51,686 bases of DNA from assembly GCA_017507905.1 (NCBI GenBank), contig JAFWAA010000031.1, forward strand, positions 1 to 51,686, read 5' to 3'. Origin of the DNA: Clostridia bacterium (GTDB taxonomy: Bacteria > Bacillota > Clostridia > Oscillospirales > CAG-272). Below the pieces are notes generated by a model, which ran no database searches, was not told the origin of the DNA, and was given only the letters and a program-made list of their open reading frames with translations. Shown here piece after piece: positions 13,744 to 33,322 of this stretch. The translations under genes and the position numbers were made by a program. Numbering within the stretch: the stretch's first letter is position 1; each line of letters starts with the position of its first letter.

Positions 13744-14367
13744 ATGTTTTACTATCTCAAGGGTGCCCTCGTGCATCTGGAAAACGGACTTGCCGTTCTG
13801 GACGTTGGCGGTGTTGGCTACAAGCTGACCGTAAGCGGAACCACCTACGACGCCATGCCCCCAAATCGCTCGGTCGCCACCCCTCCCACCGTCTGCCTCT
13901 ATACGCACATGGCCGTCAGAGAGGATGACGTTGAGCTTTTTGGCTTTGCCACGCAGGAGGAGCTGGCCTCCTTCAAACTGCTCATTTCGGTTTCGGGTAT
14001 CGGTCCCAAGGCGGCTATGTCCATTCTCACCCTGCTCTCTCCCAAAAAATTTGCGCTCGCCGTTTGCACCGAGGACAAAAAGACCATCGCCAAGGCCAAC
14101 GGCATCGGCCCAAAGACCGCCGCGCGCGTGATCCTGGAGCTGAAGGACAAGCTGATGAAGGAGACCGATCTCTCCTCTCCCATTTCCGCATCCCCCGCGG
14201 CAAGCGCCACGGGCACCTCGCGCGGAAAGCTTTCCGAGGCAGTGGACGCCCTGGTCGTTCTTGGCTATTCCCGAGCCGAGGCGTCCGGTGTTCTGAAGGA
14301 CCTCGACTCCTCACTTGAGCTGGAGGAGCTGATCCGCGCCGCCCTCAAAAAGCTGATGAAATTCTGA
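13744..14367 (+). CDS. ruvA: Holliday junction DNA-binding protein
   Basis: [46 protein letters not shown]. Confidence 0.97.
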
Positions 14368-14410
14368 CCGCCAAGGCGCGCCCGACCAAACGAAAGAAAG
14401 GACCGAACCG

Positions 14411-15490
14411 ATGGATACCAACGATTTCGATTTTGAAAACCGGATCATGACCACAAGCTACACCGCCGAGGATTCGGACGTGGAGACCTCTCTGCGCCCC
14501 AGACACCTTGAGGAGTACGTCGGCCAGGAAAAGGTAAAGGAAAATCTCAAGATCTATATTGAAGCCGCAAAGCAAAGAGGTGAGCCGCTTGACCACGTTC
14601 TGCTTTATGGCCCTCCCGGTCTTGGAAAGACCACGCTCTCCAACATCATCGCCACCGAGATGGGCGTCAATATCCGCATCACCTCCGGCCCTGCCATTGA
14701 AAAGCAAGGCGACCTTGCCGCCATTCTAACCAACCTCAACGAGGGTGACGTGCTTTTCATTGACGAGATCCACCGTCTTTCGCGCTCGGTCGAGGAGATC
14801 CTTTATCCCGCGATGGAGGATTACGCCCTGGACATCATCATCGGCAAGGGCCCGTCCGCCAGAAGCATTCGCATTGATCTTCCCCGCTTTACCCTGATCG
14901 GCGCGACCACGCGCGCGGGACAGATGACCACGCCTCTGCGCGACCGCTTTGGCGTGATCCTCAAGCTTGAGCTTTACACGCCCGAGGAGCTGGCCACCAT
15001 CGTTCGCCGCAACGCAGGGATCCTTGGCATGGAGATCGCGGACGACGGCGCGATTGAGATCGCAAGCCGCTCTCGCGGAACCCCCCGTATTGCCAACCGT
15101 CTGCTCAAGCGCGTGCGCGATTTTGCCCAGATCATGTCCGACGGCGCGATCGACCGAAAGATCGCAAGCTACGCGCTCAACAAGCTGGAGATCGACCACC
15201 TGGGGCTGGACAACGTGGACCGCAGAATGCTCGAGACCATCATCAAGTTCTACGACGGCGGACCCGTTGGTCTTGAAACGCTTGCCGCAACGGTGGGCGA
15301 GGAGGCCGTGACGCTTGAGGATATGTACGAGCCTTATCTGATGCAGATCGGCTTTTTGAGCCGTACGCCGCGAGGCAGATGCGTCACCCGTCTGGCCTGC
15401 GAGCACCTCGGACTTCCCTACCGCGCCCCCCGTGCTGTGGGCGGCGATCAGATCCGCTTCTTTGACGAAGCCGAGGACAAGCACGAATAA
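14411..15490 (+). CDS. ruvB: Holliday junction branch-migration ATPase
   Basis: [40 protein letters not shown]. Confidence 0.98.
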
Positions 15491-15732: not shown

Positions 15733-15778
15733 AAAAGAGAGAGCAAAGCGGTTTTTCTTTCCGCATTGTTCTCTCTTT
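15733..15778. terminator. Hairpin between convergent ruvB and membrane-protein gene
   Basis: AAAGAGAGAGCAAAGCGG pairs imperfectly with CCGCATTGTTCTCTCTTT. Confidence 0.6.
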
Positions 15779-15902
15779 ATGTTTTTATCGCAAGTTTCGC
15801 ATTTGTTTAACAAATGCATCGGGCTATGCCCATACCCCTATTATAAATTCTCCGATAAGGACATCACCCGTGAGGGCAGACCGTTTTTTCTTGTGCGAGG
15901 GA

Positions 15903-16612: not shown

Positions 16613-16684
16613 AAAAGGAGGAAAGGCGCAAAACGAGCCGTTTTTTTGCCGCACCGCATCTTTTTTCGGAAAGGAGGAATACGC

Positions 16685-17692
16685 ATGGGAAAGCTGATCT
16701 CGATTCGGGAGTTCTCTCCCCTCATTCAGGAATTCGCCGCCTATAAATCCTCCATTCAGGGCTGCTCGCAAAAAACGGTGGAGGAATATCTGCTCGATCT
16801 GCGCACCTTCTTCCGCTATCTCGTGGCGCGGGAAAAGGATATCGATCCGCACTCCGCGGAGTTTTCTACCCTTGATATCAGCTCTATCGGTCTGCGCGAG
16901 CTGGAAAAGATCCACGCCGAGGATCTCTACGATTTTCTGCTTTACGTCAATCACACGCGCGAAAACCAATGGGCGGCGCGCTCGCGCAAGCTCTCGGCCA
17001 TTCGTTCGCTTTACAAATACCTGGTCAACAAAAAGCACTATCTGGAGTACAACCCCACCACCGACATTGATTCCCCCAAGCCCGCAAAGGCTCTGCCCAA
17101 GGTGCTGACGCTGGACGAGGCCGAGCGCCTGCTGGACGCCGTGGACAAGGATCGCAATTCCCCCACGCGCGTTCGCGATTACGCGATCCTCACGCTCTTT
17201 CTCAACTGCGGAATGCGTGTTTCCGAGCTTGTTGGCATTGATCTGCGCGATCTTGATTCGGATTTTCAGTCGGTGCGCGTTACGGGAAAAGGAAACAAGG
17301 AGCGCATCATCTATCTTAACCAGGCCTGCCAGACCGCGCTTTGCGATTACGCGATCCAGAGGCTGAGCCAGAAATACGCCAAAGTGCATGACCCTGCCCT
17401 CTTTTTAAGCCGCCTGGAAAAGCGCATCAGCGTCAAGACCGTGCAAGCCATGGTCTACAAGTATCTGCGCGCCGCGGGACTCGGCTCCAAGGGATACTCG
17501 GTACATAAGCTCCGCCACACCGCCGCCACGCTGATGTATCAATCCGGGCAGGTGGACGTGCGCGTGCTGAAGGAGATCCTGGGCCACGAGCAGCTCAACA
17601 CCACGCAGATCTATACGCACGTCAGCAACACGGACATCGAACGCGCTATGCAAAAGAATCCCCTCGCAACAAAGAGGAGATCGAAGAAATAA
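16685..17692 (+). CDS. Tyrosine recombinase, XerC/XerD family
   Basis: Complete R-K-H-R-H-Y set (GMRVSEL, GKGNKER, HKLRH, LGHEQL, TTQIY) and an N-terminal SAM-like domain. Start MGKLIS after AAAGGAGG. Confidence 0.92.
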   Translation: MGKLISIREFSPLIQEFAAYKSSIQGCSQKTVEEYLLDLRTFFRYLVAREKDIDPHSAEFSTLDISSIGLRELEKIHAEDLYDFLLYVNHTRENQWAARSRKLSAIRSLYKYLVNKKHYLEYNPTTDIDSPKPAKALPKVLTLDEAERLLDAVDKDRNSPTRVRDYAILTLFLNCGMRVSELVGIDLRDLDSDFQSVRVTGKGNKERIIYLNQACQTALCDYAIQRLSQKYAKVHDPALFLSRLEKRISVKTVQAMVYKYLRAAGLGSKGYSVHKLRHTAATLMYQSGQVDVRVLKEILGHEQLNTTQIYTHVSNTDIERAMQKNPLATKRRSKK

Positions 17693-17729
17693 AGAACGCA
17701 CCCCCGATCGCCAAGGGCGAATTTCACTG

Positions 17730-17763
17730 AAAAAAGCACGTCTGCATCGCAGACGTGCTTTTT
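17730..17763. terminator. Bidirectional terminator after recombinase
   Basis: A6-GCACGTCTGC-ATC-GCAGACGTGC-T5. Confidence 0.9.
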
Positions 17764-17802
17764 GTTGGCCGCGCAGATCTTAAAGTCAAACACCGCCATC
17801 GT

Positions 17803-17881
17803 GGATACAAGGGCGGCCCGTCGCCCTTGATGATATACGCCTCGCTTCGCGCGGCGATGATATGCCAAGCCTGCGGCTTGG
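17803..17881. repeat. Second spacer/hairpin array (ATGATAT spacers, three hairpins)
   Basis: CAAGGGCG/CGCCCTTG; GATGATATAC; CGC-TTC-GCG hairpin; GATGATATG; CCAAGCC-TGC-GGCTTGG. Confidence 0.75.
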
Positions 17882-17931
17882 ATAAAAAAAACGCTGCAGA
17901 AAAGTACCCTTTTCTGCAGCGTTTTTTTTAT
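17882..17931. terminator. Perfect 23-bp inverted repeat terminator (probable original ssrA terminator)
   Basis: ATAAAAAAAACGCTGCAGAAAAG-TACC-CTTTTCTGCAGCGTTTTTTTTAT. Confidence 0.88.
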
Positions 17932-17961
17932 GAGTAATTGGTGAATAGGATACAAAATCCT

Positions 17962-18035
17962 AATGGGTTCATTTTGCAAAATGGGTTCACTTTTTGTAGA
18001 AAATGGGTTCACTTTTTTTGCAAAAAATGGGTTCA
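17962..18035 (+). repeat. Four direct repeats AATGGGTTCA
   Basis: Exact 10-mers at 17962, 17980, 18002 and 18026. Confidence 0.9.
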
Positions 18036-18055
18036 AATTTAACGATTGCCAAGCA

Positions 18056-18796
18056 TTAGTCTTCGTTGTTTTTTGTTATCATTTTCCAAGTCAAAGAACG
18101 TGCGCGGAAATATATATATTCCTCCGTTAATTCTTCTACACTCTCTATGCAGTCGTCAACCCAATAAACAAATCCATCGTGGAACAAAATGTTCGAATCC
18201 ATAATATCGGGCATAGTGTTGTCGTCATAATTGAAGTGTATTAAAACATCCTTTTTAAATTCTAATATAATATCGCATTCCCAACATCCAGTAAATAATA
18301 CACGAACGCAGCTTGAATCATTATAGTTTTCTTTTAATTCATAACTAATGTTTTTTATTCTAGCATCATGAAATCCCCAAGCGGCACTCAATAAATTATC
18401 TGCATCTTTGAGGTTTTTAACTCGTTTCCATTCGCCTGTATCAATGTTTTTGTTTTGCTCTTCTGCAATTTTGATGTATTTTTCATCAACAGGTTTCCCG
18501 TCTTTGATTTGCTTTATTAAGTCACAATTATCCAAAAGCCAAGAATATCCGAAGCAGTCTTTATAAGTTGTTACCATAGATAGTTTAATTTCTTTCTTTT
18601 CGACCATATCTGCAATATCAGTATCTATTATAAAGACCTTTCTTTTAAGAGAAGGCTTCGTATTATATACATTCAGTAATTCAAATTGTTTATTTTCAGT
18701 ATCAAAAACGATTACACACTCATACCATCCGGGATTAAATTTTGCAAATATATGTGAATAGTATTCTCTATTATCAGATACAATTTTTGCAAGCAT
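18056..18796 (-). CDS. AT-rich hypothetical protein (horizontally acquired)
   Basis: 246-aa ORF with AGGAGGTG RBS and its own promoter. Codon usage differs from the host. Contains an FHDA motif. Confidence 0.85.
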   Translation of the reverse strand: MLAKIVSDNREYYSHIFAKFNPGWYECVIVFDTENKQFELLNVYNTKPSLKRKVFIIDTDIADMVEKKEIKLSMVTTYKDCFGYSWLLDNCDLIKQIKDGKPVDEKYIKIAEEQNKNIDTGEWKRVKNLKDADNLLSAAWGFHDARIKNISYELKENYNDSSCVRVLFTGCWECDIILEFKKDVLIHFNYDDNTMPDIMDSNILFHDGFVYWVDDCIESVEELTEEYIYFRARSLTWKMITKNNED

Positions 18797-18853: not shown

Positions 18854-18902
18854 TGACTATTGCAGGTGTATTTTTTTGAATCGCAGTTTTAATTAAGGAT
18901 CT

Positions 18903-18996
18903 ATTTTAACGATTACTCCCACAAATTTAACGAATACACACAATTTTAACGAAACACCATAAAATTAACGAATACCTACAATTTTAACGCAAGCAA
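18903..18996 (+). repeat. Five direct repeats with TTAACG core, period 21/19/19/19 bp
   Basis: Units such as ACAAATTTAACGAATACAC, ACAATTTTAACGAAACACC, ATAAAATTAACGAATACCT, ACAATTTTAACGCAAGCAA. Confidence 0.88.
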
Positions 18997-19154
18997 AAGG
19001 AGACCATCGACCGAAGGAGCAAATAATCTCGGAAGATAGGCTTTCTTTATCGAAAACTGTGATTTTTATGCGTCAAAAGGGCAAAAATACCCCTAAAAAG
19101 CAATAAAAACGCAGATTAGGCACAAATAATTGTATCCTATTCTGCGTTCTTATT

Positions 19155-19547
19155 TGGTGGAGATGAGGAGAATCGAACTCCTGTCCGAAAACCCCTTGAT
19201 AAAACTTTCTTCGTGGGCAGTCTGTTGTTTAGAATTCCCTCGCGAGGACGCGAACAGACACGCTTCCTCTTGCGGTAGCCCTTTTTTGCTTGATCGGTTC
19301 AAGAGCGAACGGCCGATGCAAGTTCACCGCTCAAATGACGCTCAGTCCAAGGCCGCGGTACTCCTTGGAGGAACGGGTGACCCGCAGGTCACGGCACTGC
19401 CGGTTTTACGTCAAACGACGTAAAACTTAGGCAGCCATAGCAACAGTATTGTTGTCGTTTATTGTTTAATGTTAGGCCTTTATCGAGATTGCCCGGCTCG
19501 CCACGCTTATCTTATCGCAGAATCCCCGTCGAAACCATTGCACCCCC
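19155..19547 (-). ncRNA. ssrA: tmRNA
   Basis: 5' GGGGGUGCAAUGGUUUCGAC; 3' GGAGUUCGAUUCUCCUCAUCUCCACCA; G3-U70 wobble; tag ORF (A)DNNTVAMAA-stop at 19456-19427. Directly downstream of smpB. Confidence 0.97.
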
Positions 19548-31120: not shown

Positions 31121-33322
31121 TTAGGAACGGGGCATGCTCTTGTGCATTTGGGATTTGAGACGGTGGAGGATCGAGGATTTCTCCAGATTCGTCTTGGAGG
31201 TATGAAAATAGAACTCAAATACGTAGCGGTCCTCGGAAGGCTCGGTCACACCGCAGATCTGCAGCTCCTGCATGATGCGAATGATGAACTTGAGCTTGAC
31301 GTAGCCGATGGAGTCCACGCCCTGCGCGTGCAGAAGCGAGAGAATGCGACGGATCGGGAAAACGCTCTTCCCTGCGCGGAATTCGCGGCGCAGAAGCGTA
31401 TAAACGATCGCCATATCGTCGCGTGTGGGAACGAGATCCTCCTCGGGGAAAAGCTCTCCGCCCGCTCGGATCTCCTCATAGCGCGCCTTCTCACGGGTAT
31501 ACGTCTCCTCCTCGCTCTCCGAACGGTGCAGATCCTGCAGGAGCAGCTGAATGGAGGTGATGCCGTGGAATTCGTTGACGTTGAGCTGGAAGAGCAGATC
31601 GACCGTATCCATCGGCTCAAGCTCAAGACGTGCGGGATTGACGTTGAACCAAACGGCGTTCAGCTCGATGCCGTCCTTCTCCAGGGTAAGCTTGGTATGC
31701 TTTCCGCCGCCCATCGGAAGCACGCGAAGGACTCTTGCCTCGCGCAGGACCAGATTGGGGACGGGATTGGATACGCCGAAGGGCTCCATCCGTGCGATCT
31801 CGGTTGCCAGGCGCATATGCAGCTCGCACGCCTCGACCTCGCAATCGGCCTCCAGACGAATGGAGAAGGACTCCTCGCCAAGATGCTCTGCCGCATACTC
31901 GTTGATGCGGCGGCGGAACTCCTCGATCATACAGCGGCGGACAGTAAGACCAGCCGCCAGCTCGTGACCGCCAAAGCGGACCAGCGAATCCTCACACGCG
32001 GTAAGTGCCTCGACCAGATTCATTCCCTTGATGCTGCGGCCGGATCCCTTGCCCAGATCGTCCGGGGCGGGATAGCCGCGCGTTGCTCCGTCAAAGGAGA
32101 TCAGAATGGAGGGAAGACCGTATTTTTCGGTAATGCGTGAGGAAACGATACCGATAATGCCCTGCTGCCAGGTGTCATCGTCGATCACGATCACACGGTC
32201 GCGTGTGGGATCGAGCGTCTTTTCGATCTTTTTGTATGCCTGCTCGGCAATTCGGTTTTCCTCGACCTGACGCGTCAGGTTCAATTCGCAAAGCTCCTCC
32301 GCATAGCGGCGAGCCGTCTCCACGTCCTCGGCCAGAAGCATCTCCACGGCGATCGACGCGTTGCTGACGCGTCCTGCCGCATTGATGCGGGGGGCGATGA
32401 CGTAGCCGATAAAGCCGGAATTGATCTTTCTCTTTTTGCGTGCCTGCGAGCCGTTTCCGCTTCGCTCGGAGACGGCGTCAAAGAGTGCGCGAAGTCCCGG
32501 GCGTCGTGTCTCCTCCAAAAGAGCAAGACCAAGGGTAACGATCAGGCGATTTTCGTCCACGATGGGCATGACGTCGGCAATGGTGCCGATGGCCACGAGG
32601 TCGGCATATTTCTTGCAGATCTCGCGAACGCCGTCAAGCTCGGAGATCCCCTCCTCGCGGCATCTGGTCATCTCCAGGGCGCACACCACCTTGAAGACCA
32701 CCCCAACGCCTGCAAGCTCGGGGAAAGGATAGGTGTCATCCGCACGGTGCGGATTGACCACCGCCTCGGCCTTGGGAAGCTCGGCGCGGCACTCGTGGTG
32801 ATCGGTGACCACCGTGTCGATCCCCAGTCCCTTGGCATATTCGATCTCCGCGTTTGCCGTAATGCCGGTATCCACGGTGATCATCAGCTTGACCTCTCGC
32901 TCGGCAAGACGGTCGATCGCCGGCTCGGAAAGGCCGTAGCCCTCGCGGATACGGCTGGGAATGTAATAGCCCACGTCTCCGCCACGGGAGGTCAGATATA
33001 AGTAGAGCAGACTGACGGAGGTAACTCCGTCAACGTCGTAGTCTCCGTAAATGGCGATCCTCTCGCCACGCTTCAGCGCCAGATGAATGCGCTCCACCGC
33101 GCGCTCCATATCCTGCATACCGTAGGGATCATGCAGCTGCGTTTCCTCCTGATGGAGAAACGCGACCACCGCCTCGGGCGTGGTAAAGCCGCGCGTATAG
33201 AGCAGGCGCGCCATGACCGGGGAGAACCCGGTTGCCTCGACGATGCGCTCCACCGCCGCCTCGGCCGCGGCGCTTCCCTTCGGATAGCGCAAGGACCAGG
33301 TCTTTTTCTTCTGTTCCGTCAT
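31121..33322 (-). CDS. recJ: ssDNA exonuclease
   Basis: GDYDVDG, DHH, PRINAAGR, GGHELAAG. Confidence 0.96.
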   Translation of the reverse strand: MTEQKKKTWSLRYPKGSAAAEAAVERIVEATGFSPVMARLLYTRGFTTPEAVVAFLHQEETQLHDPYGMQDMERAVERIHLALKRGERIAIYGDYDVDGVTSVSLLYLYLTSRGGDVGYYIPSRIREGYGLSEPAIDRLAEREVKLMITVDTGITANAEIEYAKGLGIDTVVTDHHECRAELPKAEAVVNPHRADDTYPFPELAGVGVVFKVVCALEMTRCREEGISELDGVREICKKYADLVAIGTIADVMPIVDENRLIVTLGLALLEETRRPGLRALFDAVSERSGNGSQARKKRKINSGFIGYVIAPRINAAGRVSNASIAVEMLLAEDVETARRYAEELCELNLTRQVEENRIAEQAYKKIEKTLDPTRDRVIVIDDDTWQQGIIGIVSSRITEKYGLPSILISFDGATRGYPAPDDLGKGSGRSIKGMNLVEALTACEDSLVRFGGHELAAGLTVRRCMIEEFRRRINEYAAEHLGEESFSIRLEADCEVEACELHMRLATEIARMEPFGVSNPVPNLVLREARVLRVLPMGGGKHTKLTLEKDGIELNAVWFNVNPARLELEPMDTVDLLFQLNVNEFHGITSIQLLLQDLHRSESEEETYTREKARYEEIRAGGELFPEEDLVPTRDDMAIVYTLLRREFRAGKSVFPIRRILSLLHAQGVDSIGYVKLKFIIRIMQELQICGVTEPSEDRYVFEFYFHTSKTNLEKSSILHRLKSQMHKSMPRS

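What the first reader, a model, noticed from the sequence alone, without database searches (positions are those of the whole stretch)
17803..17881. Second, one-armed member of the spacer/hairpin family next to the ssrA-side terminator
Seen (minus): CCAAGCC[GCA]GGCTTGG-CATATCATC-GCCGCGC[GAA]GCGAGGC-GTATATCATC-AAGGGCG[ACGGGC]CGCCCTT-GTATCC. It has the same GCC-GCA-GGC and CGC-GAA-GCG caps as the 15.5 kb array, with spacer ATATCAT instead of ATATCAC. Inference: the two arrays are variants of one dispersed element or share a binding protein.
Basis: partly seen in the sequence, partly recalled or inferred. Interest (0 to 1): 0.62.

Follow-up and report, generated by a model that had tools for sequence, protein, structure and literature searches.

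The report
Truncated tRNA-flank hairpin-array element copy
The three small hairpins next to the tmRNA terminator are the surviving half of a roughly 200-base repeat that uncultured gut Clostridia place directly behind tRNA and tmRNA genes; intact copies usually sit in front of a small ring-forming protein gene of unknown function, so this copy is a relic but its family is an undescribed relative of the unexplained "Gut-1" motif.

Summary
Window 17804-17881 carries three hairpins separated by two copies of GATGATATRC. A covariance model built without this copy scores it 75.5 bits (E about 1e-12).

It is not a separate small array. It is the tRNA-proximal arm of a roughly 200-bp two-armed element, here called family A:
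- There are 8 copies in this genome, matches in 23 of 41 relatives, and more than 119 stretches in public Oscillospirales MAGs.
- The element nearly always abuts the terminator of a tRNA or tmRNA gene, in one fixed orientation.
- The orthologous ssrA locus of a near-identical strain holds the full element plus an outward promoter and a small gene. The window copy lacks those roughly 590 bp.

Hairpin stems covary strongly, while the 10-nt spacers stay constant. The hairpins fold better on the ATATCAT strand, mostly with C(GNA)G triloops.

The 15.5-kb array (Rfam Gut-1-like) shares this architecture, but neither model detects the other family.

Intact arrays are the regular upstream partner of PF05635 (Avd-like four-helix-bundle) genes, and the protein sequence changes with the spacer word. 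That protein is the best candidate reader of the spacers. The adjacent tyrosine recombinase is a housekeeping Xer-type gene and is unrelated.

No expression data could be obtained.

The parts
17804..17808 (-). GATAC, remnant of the innermost degenerate spacer (GATGAGATAC in full copies). The deletion junction lies just to its left.
   Evidence: Alignment with full copies and comparison with the orthologous locus L021.
17808..17829 (-). Hairpin R3, CAAGGGCGG/CCGCCCTTG type: 8-9 bp stem, 4-6 nt loop.
   Evidence: The same hairpin module occurs in copies C43a, C59, C27 and C29.
17829..17838 (-). Constant 10-nt spacer GATGATATAC (GTATATCATC on the tmRNA-sense strand).
   Evidence: Nearly invariant across 24 full copies.
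17838..17856 (-). Hairpin R2 with a C(GAA)G triloop on the tmRNA-sense strand and one internal G.A mismatch. Copies C27 and G017-Gln carry the same mismatch.
17856..17865 (-). Constant 10-nt spacer GATGATATGC.
17865..17881 (-). Terminal hairpin CCAAGCC-GCA-GGCTTGG, the most conserved module of the family. It marks the tRNA-proximal end.
   Evidence: Largely invariant columns in all 8 genomic copies. The exact 28-nt word containing it is found in more than 119 public stretches.
17884..17929 (-). Bidirectional intrinsic terminator that travels with the array. It is the ssrA terminator of the ancestral locus and is now separated from ssrA by a 1.2-kb cassette.
   Evidence: 23-nt arms, 100% complementary. 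It matches the terminator that directly abuts tmRNA in L021 (the wider block L021 768-869 / window 17825-17928 is 89.6% identical). Terminator classes recur with the array at different tRNAs.
17764..17804 (.). Flank shared with the sister strain, distal to the deletion. In the sister strain about 590 bp lie between this flank and the arm: a small gene, an outward promoter, the distal arm and the centre.
   Evidence: L021 1-179 matches window 17626-17804, and L021 768-869 matches window 17825-17928.
19155..19547 (-). tmRNA gene (ssrA), the RNA gene whose 3' flank the element marks.
16682..17692 (+). Xer-type tyrosine recombinase. It is a neighbour only and not part of the element.
   Evidence: Phage_integrase domain; single copy in 39 of 41 relatives, usually far from ssrA, with no relation to array content.

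Best explanation
Window 17804-17881 is the tRNA-proximal arm of a decayed copy of a roughly 200-bp two-armed 'hairpin-and-word' element, here called family A.

The intact element reads, from the RNA gene outwards:
- tRNA/tmRNA CCA end and an intrinsic terminator;
- the terminal hairpin CCAAGCC-GCA-GGCTTGG;
- two or three units of [GTATATCATC + variable hairpin];
- a centre;
- three inverted units;
- a 25-nt linker and an outward sigma-70 promoter (TTGAAT-N17-TATAAT);
- a cargo gene, most often a PF05635 (23S-rRNA-IVS/Avd-like) four-helix-bundle gene.

Compared with the sister strain, the window copy lacks the centre, distal arm, promoter and cargo (about 590 bp). A 1.2-kb cassette later inserted between ssrA and the terminator. 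The copy is therefore most likely an inert relic.

How the intact element works is inferred, not shown. The hairpins are selected for structure only and fold on the strand that carries ATATCAT. Their C(GNA)G and GNRA caps would make them clamps that present the constant 7-10-nt words. The words would be read sequence-specifically by the cognate PF05635 protein encoded just downstream, giving cis control of the adjacent promoter or of the module. I put this specific reader model at about 0.35-0.4. The identity of the relic I put at over 0.9.
For: Identity:
- blastn finds 8 copies in the genome, 86-96% identical to the window arm.
- Model R1, built without the window copy, scores it 75.5 bits; the left arms of full copies score 47-57 bits on the opposite strand.
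- The orthologous ssrA locus of a strain with 100% identical ssrA carries the full element plus promoter and gene.

tRNA flank:
- 7 of 8 copies in this genome lie downstream of a tRNA or tmRNA gene, as do 26 of 40 loci in relatives.
- Of 82 public occurrences, 47 lie within 80 nt of a tRNA/tmRNA 3' end, 10 within 81-400 nt and 6 within 401-2000 nt. They cover 26 anticodons plus tmRNA and are never in the other orientation.

Structure:
- 85.7% of hairpin cells are paired and 24 of 48 pairs show changes on both sides. The covariation score is 0.243 against 0.091 in shuffles (0 of 500 reach it) and at most 0.106 in slid controls.
- The spacers are nearly invariant.

Strand:
- 64 of 74 units are more stable on the ATATCAT strand and 6 on the other. 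G.U pairs number 30 versus 4.
- 125 of 201 triloops are C(GNA)G, and 0 of 98 opposite-strand tetraloops are UNCG.

Protein link:
- All 3 PF05635 genes of this genome lie just behind an array.
- 13 of 58 ORFs distal to family A in public MAGs are PF05635; no other cluster has more than 2 members.
- Similarity between loci runs from the terminator to the PF05635 stop codon and ends there.
- 27 of 40 PF05635 genes in relatives have an array within 500 nt upstream, against 23 of 3000 random windows.
- Phyletic co-occurrence across 41 genomes: both present in 23, neither in 10, arrays only in 5, protein only in 3.
- The 13 proteins next to ATATCAT arrays are 78-96% identical to one another. The protein next to the ATGGAAT variant of the same scaffold is 60-66% identical to them. 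Those next to the ACATCAT and ATATCAC arrays are 32-52% identical.
Against: - RNA versus single-stranded DNA, and any protein binding, remain inference.
- Word-protein covariation in my data rests on few independent events and is confounded by linkage of array and gene.
- This genome has seven ATATCAT arrays but no ATATCAT-clade PF05635 gene in its 92%-complete assembly. Arrays therefore persist without a cognate protein.
- In many copies a promoter lies between array and gene, so the array is not in the mRNA.
- Both arm topologies occur, which no simple transcript model explains.
- The window's hairpins R3 and R2 differ from those of the sister strain, so a single clean deletion is not the whole history.
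Confidence: 0.72

Rival explanations
1. The arm still works by itself as a fail-safe terminator or insulator behind ssrA. Read-through RNA would fold into three stable capped hairpins that stop or stall RNA polymerase, or block 3' exonucleases.
For: It lies between two intrinsic terminators. On the tmRNA-sense strand the hairpins carry the favourable GNA caps and G.U-tolerant stems. The family sits behind highly transcribed RNA genes and in front of promoters.
Against: The hairpins are followed by GUAUAUCAUC, not a U-tract, so they are not intrinsic terminators; a proper terminator already precedes them. Arrays occur in both arm topologies. The strict conservation of the 10-nt word is not explained by a pure hairpin barrier.
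Confidence: 0.12
2. It is a structured non-coding RNA of the Gut-1 kind, functional in its own right as an sRNA or 3'-trailer element.
For: Gut-1 was classed as a probable RNA from covariation (PMC2864571). The hairpins covary, and GNRA tetraloops occur in 36 of 98 tetraloop units.
Against: - No promoter faces the arm, and it lies beyond a strong terminator.
- 61% of loops are triloops, mostly C(GNA)G, which from general knowledge are hallmark stable DNA mini-hairpins rather than RNA motifs. No UNCG loops occur on either reading.
- The favoured strand switches between the two arms, so no single transcript carries all the good hairpins.
- The Rfam Gut-1 model does not detect it.
Confidence: 0.08
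3. It is a REP/BIME-like or MITE-like selfish repeat moved by a transposase supplied in trans. The window copy would be a dead fragment, and the PF05635 link would be incidental.
For: - It is dispersed, with many copies at contig ends.
- The outer ends are imperfect inverted repeats.
- The same terminator-plus-array unit occurs at different tRNAs.
- Two near-identical strains carry different arrays at tRNA-Gln.
- A 46-nt palindrome is inserted in a hairpin loop of copy C27.
Against: - No Y1/RAYT transposase is present in this genome or in most array-rich relatives.
- There are no matches in phage or plasmid collections and only one in IMG/VR.
- No target-site duplication or empty-site pair was found.
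- The fixed position and orientation at tRNA CCA ends, and the conserved promoter-plus-PF05635 unit, fit a module better than a free MITE.
Confidence: 0.06
4. The array and the neighbouring tyrosine recombinase form an integron-like cassette-capture system at ssrA.
For: The recombinase gene points toward ssrA, a foreign cassette sits at the ssrA end, and the folded hairpin sites loosely recall attC.
Against: The recombinase is single-copy in 39 of 41 relatives, 42-76% identical in relatives other than the sister strain (98%), and mostly tens of kb from ssrA. Its presence is independent of array content. It has no paralogue next to the other 7 copies.
Confidence: 0.02

Closest known systems
Gut-1 RNA motif (Rfam RF01706; Weinberg et al. 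2010, PMC2864571)
   Same: A series of short, covarying hairpins separated by a constant heptamer (GUGAAAU there). It is found only in uncultured gut bacteria and has no known function. The 15.5-kb array of this window and about 28 other sites in this genome match the model.
   Different: The word is ATATCAT. The Rfam model gives no hit on the window arm and only 13-16 bits on full copies. The unit is a two-armed roughly 200-bp element with a fixed terminal hairpin, tRNA-flank position and outward promoter, none of which is part of the Rfam description. The loops favour the strand opposite to the one Rfam models.
REP/BIME elements with RAYT (TnpA-REP) transposases of proteobacteria
   Same: Extragenic, dispersed, hairpin-forming units, often paired in inverted orientation behind genes and terminators. 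A short conserved single-stranded motif lies next to each hairpin, and one DNA strand is favoured for folding.
   Different: There is no Y1/RAYT gene. The hairpin sequences vary while the linker is constant, the reverse of REPs. The element is strictly associated with tRNA 3' flanks and with PF05635 genes.
Avd (accessory variability determinant) of diversity-generating retroelements and the GC-rich hairpin/cruciform next to avd
   Same: The partner protein belongs to the same Pfam family (PF05635). Its closest solved relative, 2RLD, was deposited with five chains. From general knowledge, bAvd is a basic pentamer that binds nucleic acid, and the DGR target site needs a DNA hairpin.
   Different: There is no reverse transcriptase, template repeat or variable repeat nearby. 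Here there are many hairpins and a repeated word rather than a single hairpin.
23S rRNA intervening sequences carrying an S23p/IVP ORF (Leptospira, Coxiella)
   Same: A PF05635 gene is tied to a stable-RNA gene and to flanking inverted repeats, with a patchy distribution that suggests mobility (general knowledge).
   Different: The module sits behind the RNA gene rather than inside it. The repeats form an array upstream of the gene rather than a stem enclosing it.
Integron attC sites
   Same: Structure is conserved while sequence varies, only short core motifs are constant, and one strand is favoured for folding.
   Different: There is no integron integrase, the units are 15-22 nt hairpins rather than 60-140 nt bulged stems, and there is no cassette array bounded by these sites.

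Membership tests
Gut-1 RNA motif (RF01706) | Scores at or above the family gathering threshold (50 bits) with the Rfam covariance model. | tested here: not met
   No hit on 17803-17881 at E<=10. Full family-A copies score 13-16 bits. The 15.5-kb array scores 48.1 and 43.9 bits.
Gut-1 RNA motif (RF01706) | Three or more short hairpins separated by a constant heptamer, with stems supported by covariation. | tested here: met
   The word is ATATCAT instead of ATTTCAC.
Gut-1 RNA motif (RF01706) | Functions as a transcribed RNA in the GUGAAAU orientation. | not testable with these tools
Loop and G.U statistics favour the opposite strand.
Family A two-armed tRNA-flank element (defined here) | Matches model R1, built from 24 other copies. 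| tested here: met
   75.5 bits, E=1.7e-12 at 17804-17885.
Family A two-armed tRNA-flank element (defined here) | Terminal hairpin CCAAGCC-GCA-GGCTTGG followed by a terminator that abuts a tRNA/tmRNA CCA end. | tested here: met
   The hairpin and terminator are present. The terminator abuts tmRNA in the orthologue, and here a 1.2-kb cassette intervenes.
Family A two-armed tRNA-flank element (defined here) | Second, inverted arm, centre and outward promoter. | tested here: not met
   Absent from the window copy and present in the orthologous locus L021. The window copy is therefore a truncated member.
REP/BIME with RAYT | A Y1 (RAYT/IS200-type) transposase gene is present in genomes carrying the repeats. 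| tested here: not met
   PF01797 is absent from G000 and from most array-rich relatives.
Intrinsic terminator | GC-rich hairpin immediately followed by a T-tract. | tested here: not met
   The array hairpins are followed by GTATATCATC. Only the flanking elements at 17730-17763 and 17884-17929 qualify.
Integron-like system with the neighbouring tyrosine recombinase | The recombinase co-occurs and is co-located with the sites. | tested here: not met
CRISPR array | Constant repeats of 23-50 nt, non-palindromic spacers of foreign origin, cas genes. | tested here: not met
   The constant word is 7-10 nt, and the variable parts are self-complementary hairpins shared between copies. No search for cas genes was made.

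The most novel reading that the evidence does not exclude
The hairpin-and-word arrays (Gut-1 and its unrecognised relatives, such as this ATATCAT family) may be the cognate nucleic-acid partners of the very large, function-less PF05635/Avd-like protein family. Each ring-forming protein would read its own 7-10-nt word, displayed between clamp hairpins. Terminator, array, promoter and protein gene would together form a self-contained module that is exchanged at the exact 3' end of any tRNA or tmRNA gene. Orphan arms like the one in this window would be the fossils of such exchanges.
Probability: 0.3. Interest if true: 0.8.

Novelty: new variant of a known kind. Interest (0 to 1): 0.5.

Why it matters
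Gut-1 has been catalogued since 2010 with no function, and I found no later study of it. PF05635 is a large protein family with no known role outside diversity-generating retroelements.

This window adds three things:
- There is a whole subfamily of Gut-1-like arrays that the Rfam model cannot see.
- That subfamily is tied to the 3' flank of tRNA and tmRNA genes with a fixed polarity.
- The spacer word changes together with the linked PF05635 protein.

This makes a direct binding experiment possible for two orphans at once. It also explains a class of assembly breaks and unannotated repeats in gut Clostridia MAGs. The window copy itself is only a relic.

Tried and rejected
1. Adjacent tyrosine recombinase as partner: rejected. 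It is single-copy and near-universal, usually far from ssrA, and has no paralogues at the other copies.
2. REP/RAYT reading: rejected. There is no Y1 transposase.
3. Phage or plasmid origin: no match in either collection and only one match in IMG/VR.
4. Pairing of left-arm with right-arm spacers into a ladder of four-way junctions. The fold is predicted and 92.5% of cells pair, but the covariation comes from a single sequence and single-site changes are not compensated. Left as unproven.
5. Long-range helix between the centre half-hairpin and the terminal hairpin. It shows 93.9% pairing and a covariation score of 0.242 against 0.074, but this rests on about two events and fits an inverted partial duplication equally well.
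6. Cross-detection of the two window arrays with covariance models: negative in both directions.
8. Literature on Gut-1 or on PF05635 with hairpin arrays: nothing beyond the 2010 catalogue.
9. A tRNA T-arm mimic at the distal end of family A, as seen in the mini-cassettes at ssrA in congeners: not found.

Full report
**Context.** The window is contig C21 of a 1.61-Mb, 63-contig, 57% G+C genome that is 92% complete. Public relatives are MAGs labelled Oscillospiraceae, Acutalibacteraceae, Faecousia and similar, from animal and human gut. Around the finding lie:
- ruvA and ruvB (13744-15490, + strand);
- the 15.5-kb array;
- an unannotated ORF;
- a tyrosine recombinase (16682-17692, + strand);
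- a bidirectional terminator (17730-17763);
- the finding (17804-17881);
- a second terminator (17884-17929);
- a 1.2-kb AT-rich stretch with one ORF;
- the tmRNA gene (19155-19547, - strand) and smpB.

**Observation.** The constant part is really 10 nt, GTATATCATC. GATGATATRC occurs 3 times in the window against 0.12 expected. The arm alone folds only slightly better than shuffles (z about -2), so folding energy is not the argument.

**A dispersed family.** Clusters of ATATCA[CT] pick out about 25 arrays in the genome, many at contig ends. They fall into subfamilies. The finding belongs to family A, which has 8 copies:
- four full-length two-armed copies of about 200 bp: C43:32461-32661, C59, C27 and C19;
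- one full copy in which all six words read ATGGAAT/ATTCCAT: C43:3188-3365;
- three truncated copies: the window, C29 and C37.

The full element folds with z about -8 as DNA or RNA. Covariance model R1, built from 24 right arms that exclude the window copy, scores the window arm 75.5 bits (E=1.7e-12). It also finds the left arms of full copies on the opposite strand at 47-57 bits, so the two arms are inverted versions of one unit plan.

**The window copy is a truncation.** Genome G017 has 100% identical ssrA and a 98% identical recombinase. Its orthologous locus runs: recombinase, terminator, the same 40-nt flank, a roughly 110-codon gene on the other strand, a TTGAAT-N17-TATAAT promoter, a full two-armed family-A element, a matching terminator, and then the tmRNA gene with nothing in between. 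Relative to it the window lacks about 590 bp (gene, promoter, distal arm, centre) and has gained 1.2 kb between the tmRNA CCA end and the terminator. The two inner hairpins of the window arm differ from those of G017. Instead they match copy C27 (95.7% over 69 nt), so hairpin modules are exchanged between copies.

**Position.** In this genome 7 of 8 copies lie downstream of a tRNA or tmRNA gene, always with the CCAAGCC hairpin toward the RNA gene.
- In 40 loci from relatives, 26 have the RNA gene's 3' end within a few tens of nt of the element's end.
- In 82 occurrences of an exact 28-nt word in public genomes, 47 lie within 80 nt of a tRNA/tmRNA 3' end, 10 within 81-400 nt and 6 within 401-2000 nt. 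Seven sit at contig ends and 12 have no tRNA. They cover 26 anticodons plus tmRNA, and no tRNA appears in any other orientation.
- The terminator between the tRNA and the array falls into a few recurring classes that are shared between different tRNAs and genomes, so terminator and array travel together.
- At tRNA-Gln, G017 carries family A whereas this genome carries a different terminator and an AACATCATT-word array. The difference starts exactly at the CCA end.

**Structure and strand.** In 24 full copies, 24 of 48 hairpin pairs show changes on both sides. The covariation score is 0.243 against 0.091 in shuffles (0 of 500 reach it) and at most 0.106 in slid controls. The 10-nt words are nearly invariant.
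- Pairing of left words with right words is possible (92.5% of cells), but its covariation comes from one sequence.
- An 11-nt complementarity between the centre and the terminal hairpin covaries in about two events.
- Units fold better on the strand carrying ATATCAT in 64 cases against 6, and G.U pairs number 30 against 4.
- Among 327 distinct hairpins of the superfamily, 201 have triloops, of which 125 are C(GNA)G. GNRA makes up 36 of 98 tetraloops, and no UNCG loop occurs on the other strand.

From general knowledge, d(C-GNA-G) mini-hairpins are exceptionally stable in DNA, so I lean toward single-stranded DNA. This is inference. Because the arms are inverted, the favoured strand switches at the centre, and both arm topologies exist in the superfamily.

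**Relation to the 15.5-kb array and Gut-1.** Rfam Gut-1 (RF01706) matches the two arms of the 15.5-kb array at 48.1 and 43.9 bits against a threshold of 50. It matches 28 sites in the genome at E<1e-3. It gives no hit on the finding and only 13-16 bits on full family-A copies. R1 does not detect the 15.5-kb array. The two arrays share an architecture and a similar word, but they are separate families. Gut-1 itself is described only as an unexplained motif from human gut metagenomes, and I found no later work.

**Partner gene.**
- All three PF05635 (23S_rRNA_IVP, Avd-like four-helix-bundle) genes of this genome lie directly behind a two-armed array. A fourth hit is the same gene split across two contig ends.
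- Next to family A in public MAGs, 13 of 58 distal ORFs are PF05635; no other cluster has more than 2 members.
- Between loci at different tRNAs, similarity runs from the terminator through the array and promoter to the PF05635 stop codon and ends there.
- In relatives, 27 of 40 PF05635 genes have an array, detected de novo, within 500 nt upstream, against 23 of 3000 random windows. The words are very diverse: GTGAAAT, GTGATAT, ACATCAT, GTTATGA, AGTTATA, ATGAATT and others.
- Across 41 genomes, arrays and PF05635 are both present in 23, both absent in 10, arrays only in 5 and protein only in 3.
- The 13 proteins beside ATATCAT arrays are 78-96% identical to one another. The protein beside the ATGGAAT variant, which keeps the same outer hairpins and linker, is 60-66% identical to them. 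Those beside the ACATCAT and ATATCAC arrays are 32-52% identical.
- The closest solved relative is 2RLD, deposited with five chains.

This supports sequence-specific reading of the words by the linked protein but does not prove it.

**Excluded.** The neighbouring recombinase is a single-copy, near-universal Xer-type gene that is mostly far from ssrA. No Y1/RAYT transposase accompanies the arrays. There are no phage or plasmid matches.

**Limits.** All genomes are fragmented MAGs. The word-protein link rests on few independent events.

**Earlier scan notes.** After my own analysis I consulted earlier notes of this scan. Several report the same tRNA-flank position and PF05635 link in other genomes. 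They agree with my results but are not independent evidence.

**Verdict.** The finding is a real but decayed half-copy of an undescribed Gut-1-like family. The relic itself is ordinary. The family is of moderate to high interest.

Noticed in passing
G000 contig C27:32575-32640 (locus L003): The terminal CCAAGCC hairpin of this family-A copy carries a 46-nt palindromic insert (GGGAACCCCCAAAGCTCGGCAAGCTCGCTTCGGGGAACCCC) exactly in its loop. A similar insert is seen in G001 (L011/L023). Hairpin loops appear to be insertion targets.
   Followed up: no
Loci L060-L070 (ssrA 3' flanks of congeners); G000 C27:32360-32560; G000 C29:3540-3700: Serial roughly 170-200-bp mini-cassettes behind tmRNA and tRNA genes. 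Each ends in a copy of the RNA gene's 3' end with one extra base in the T-loop (GAATCAGAAC or GAATCTGAAC) and carries its own terminator.
   Followed up: partly
window 17930-17960 and 19125-19150: The 1.2-kb cassette between tmRNA and the terminator has 11-nt inverted repeats, ATAGGATACAA, about 14 nt inside each end, and brings its own terminator next to the CCA end. Contig C37 (about 33220-33300) has the same cassette end next to a family-A remnant.
   Followed up: partly
window 17960-18080: Four direct copies of GAACCCATTTT at the distal end of the cassette. Five TTCGTTAAAAT-type 19-bp repeats lie upstream of its promoter (18900-19000).
   Followed up: no
window 15740-15860; G000 C17, C32, C40, C57, C39: A conserved module, TATAAT-AGGGGTATGGGC...GCCTTTGTAATACAA, accompanies the ATATCAC (family B) arrays. 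It occurs in either orientation relative to the array and looks like a promoter plus the start of a small transcript. No Rfam family matched.
   Followed up: no
G000 C4:17340-17398, C45:5750-5806, C9:200-273, C61:260-319, C57:73514-73560: A further repeat, GGGCGAGGCTTCGAAGAAGTCCA(C/T)GAGCGA, flanks the short-period (18 nt) GTGATAT arrays and the ATTTCAT/ATATCAT mixed arrays.
   Followed up: no
G000 C52:21334-21700 versus G017 locus L042: Two strains with identical tRNA-Gln carry different terminator-plus-array modules behind it: an AACATCATT word in one and ATATCAT in the other. The swap starts exactly at the CCA end.
   Followed up: partly
G000 C39:20493-20669 and C46:45433-45680: These two contig ends overlap inside one PF05635 gene, so the assembly broke there. 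The array in front of this gene is followed directly by the ribosome-binding site, with no promoter in between.
   Followed up: partly
G000 C43:3365-3400: In the ATGGAAT-word copy the linker and promoter are deleted, so the PF05635 ribosome-binding site follows the distal hairpin directly. This gene may be silent or expressed only by read-through from tRNA-Glu.
   Followed up: no
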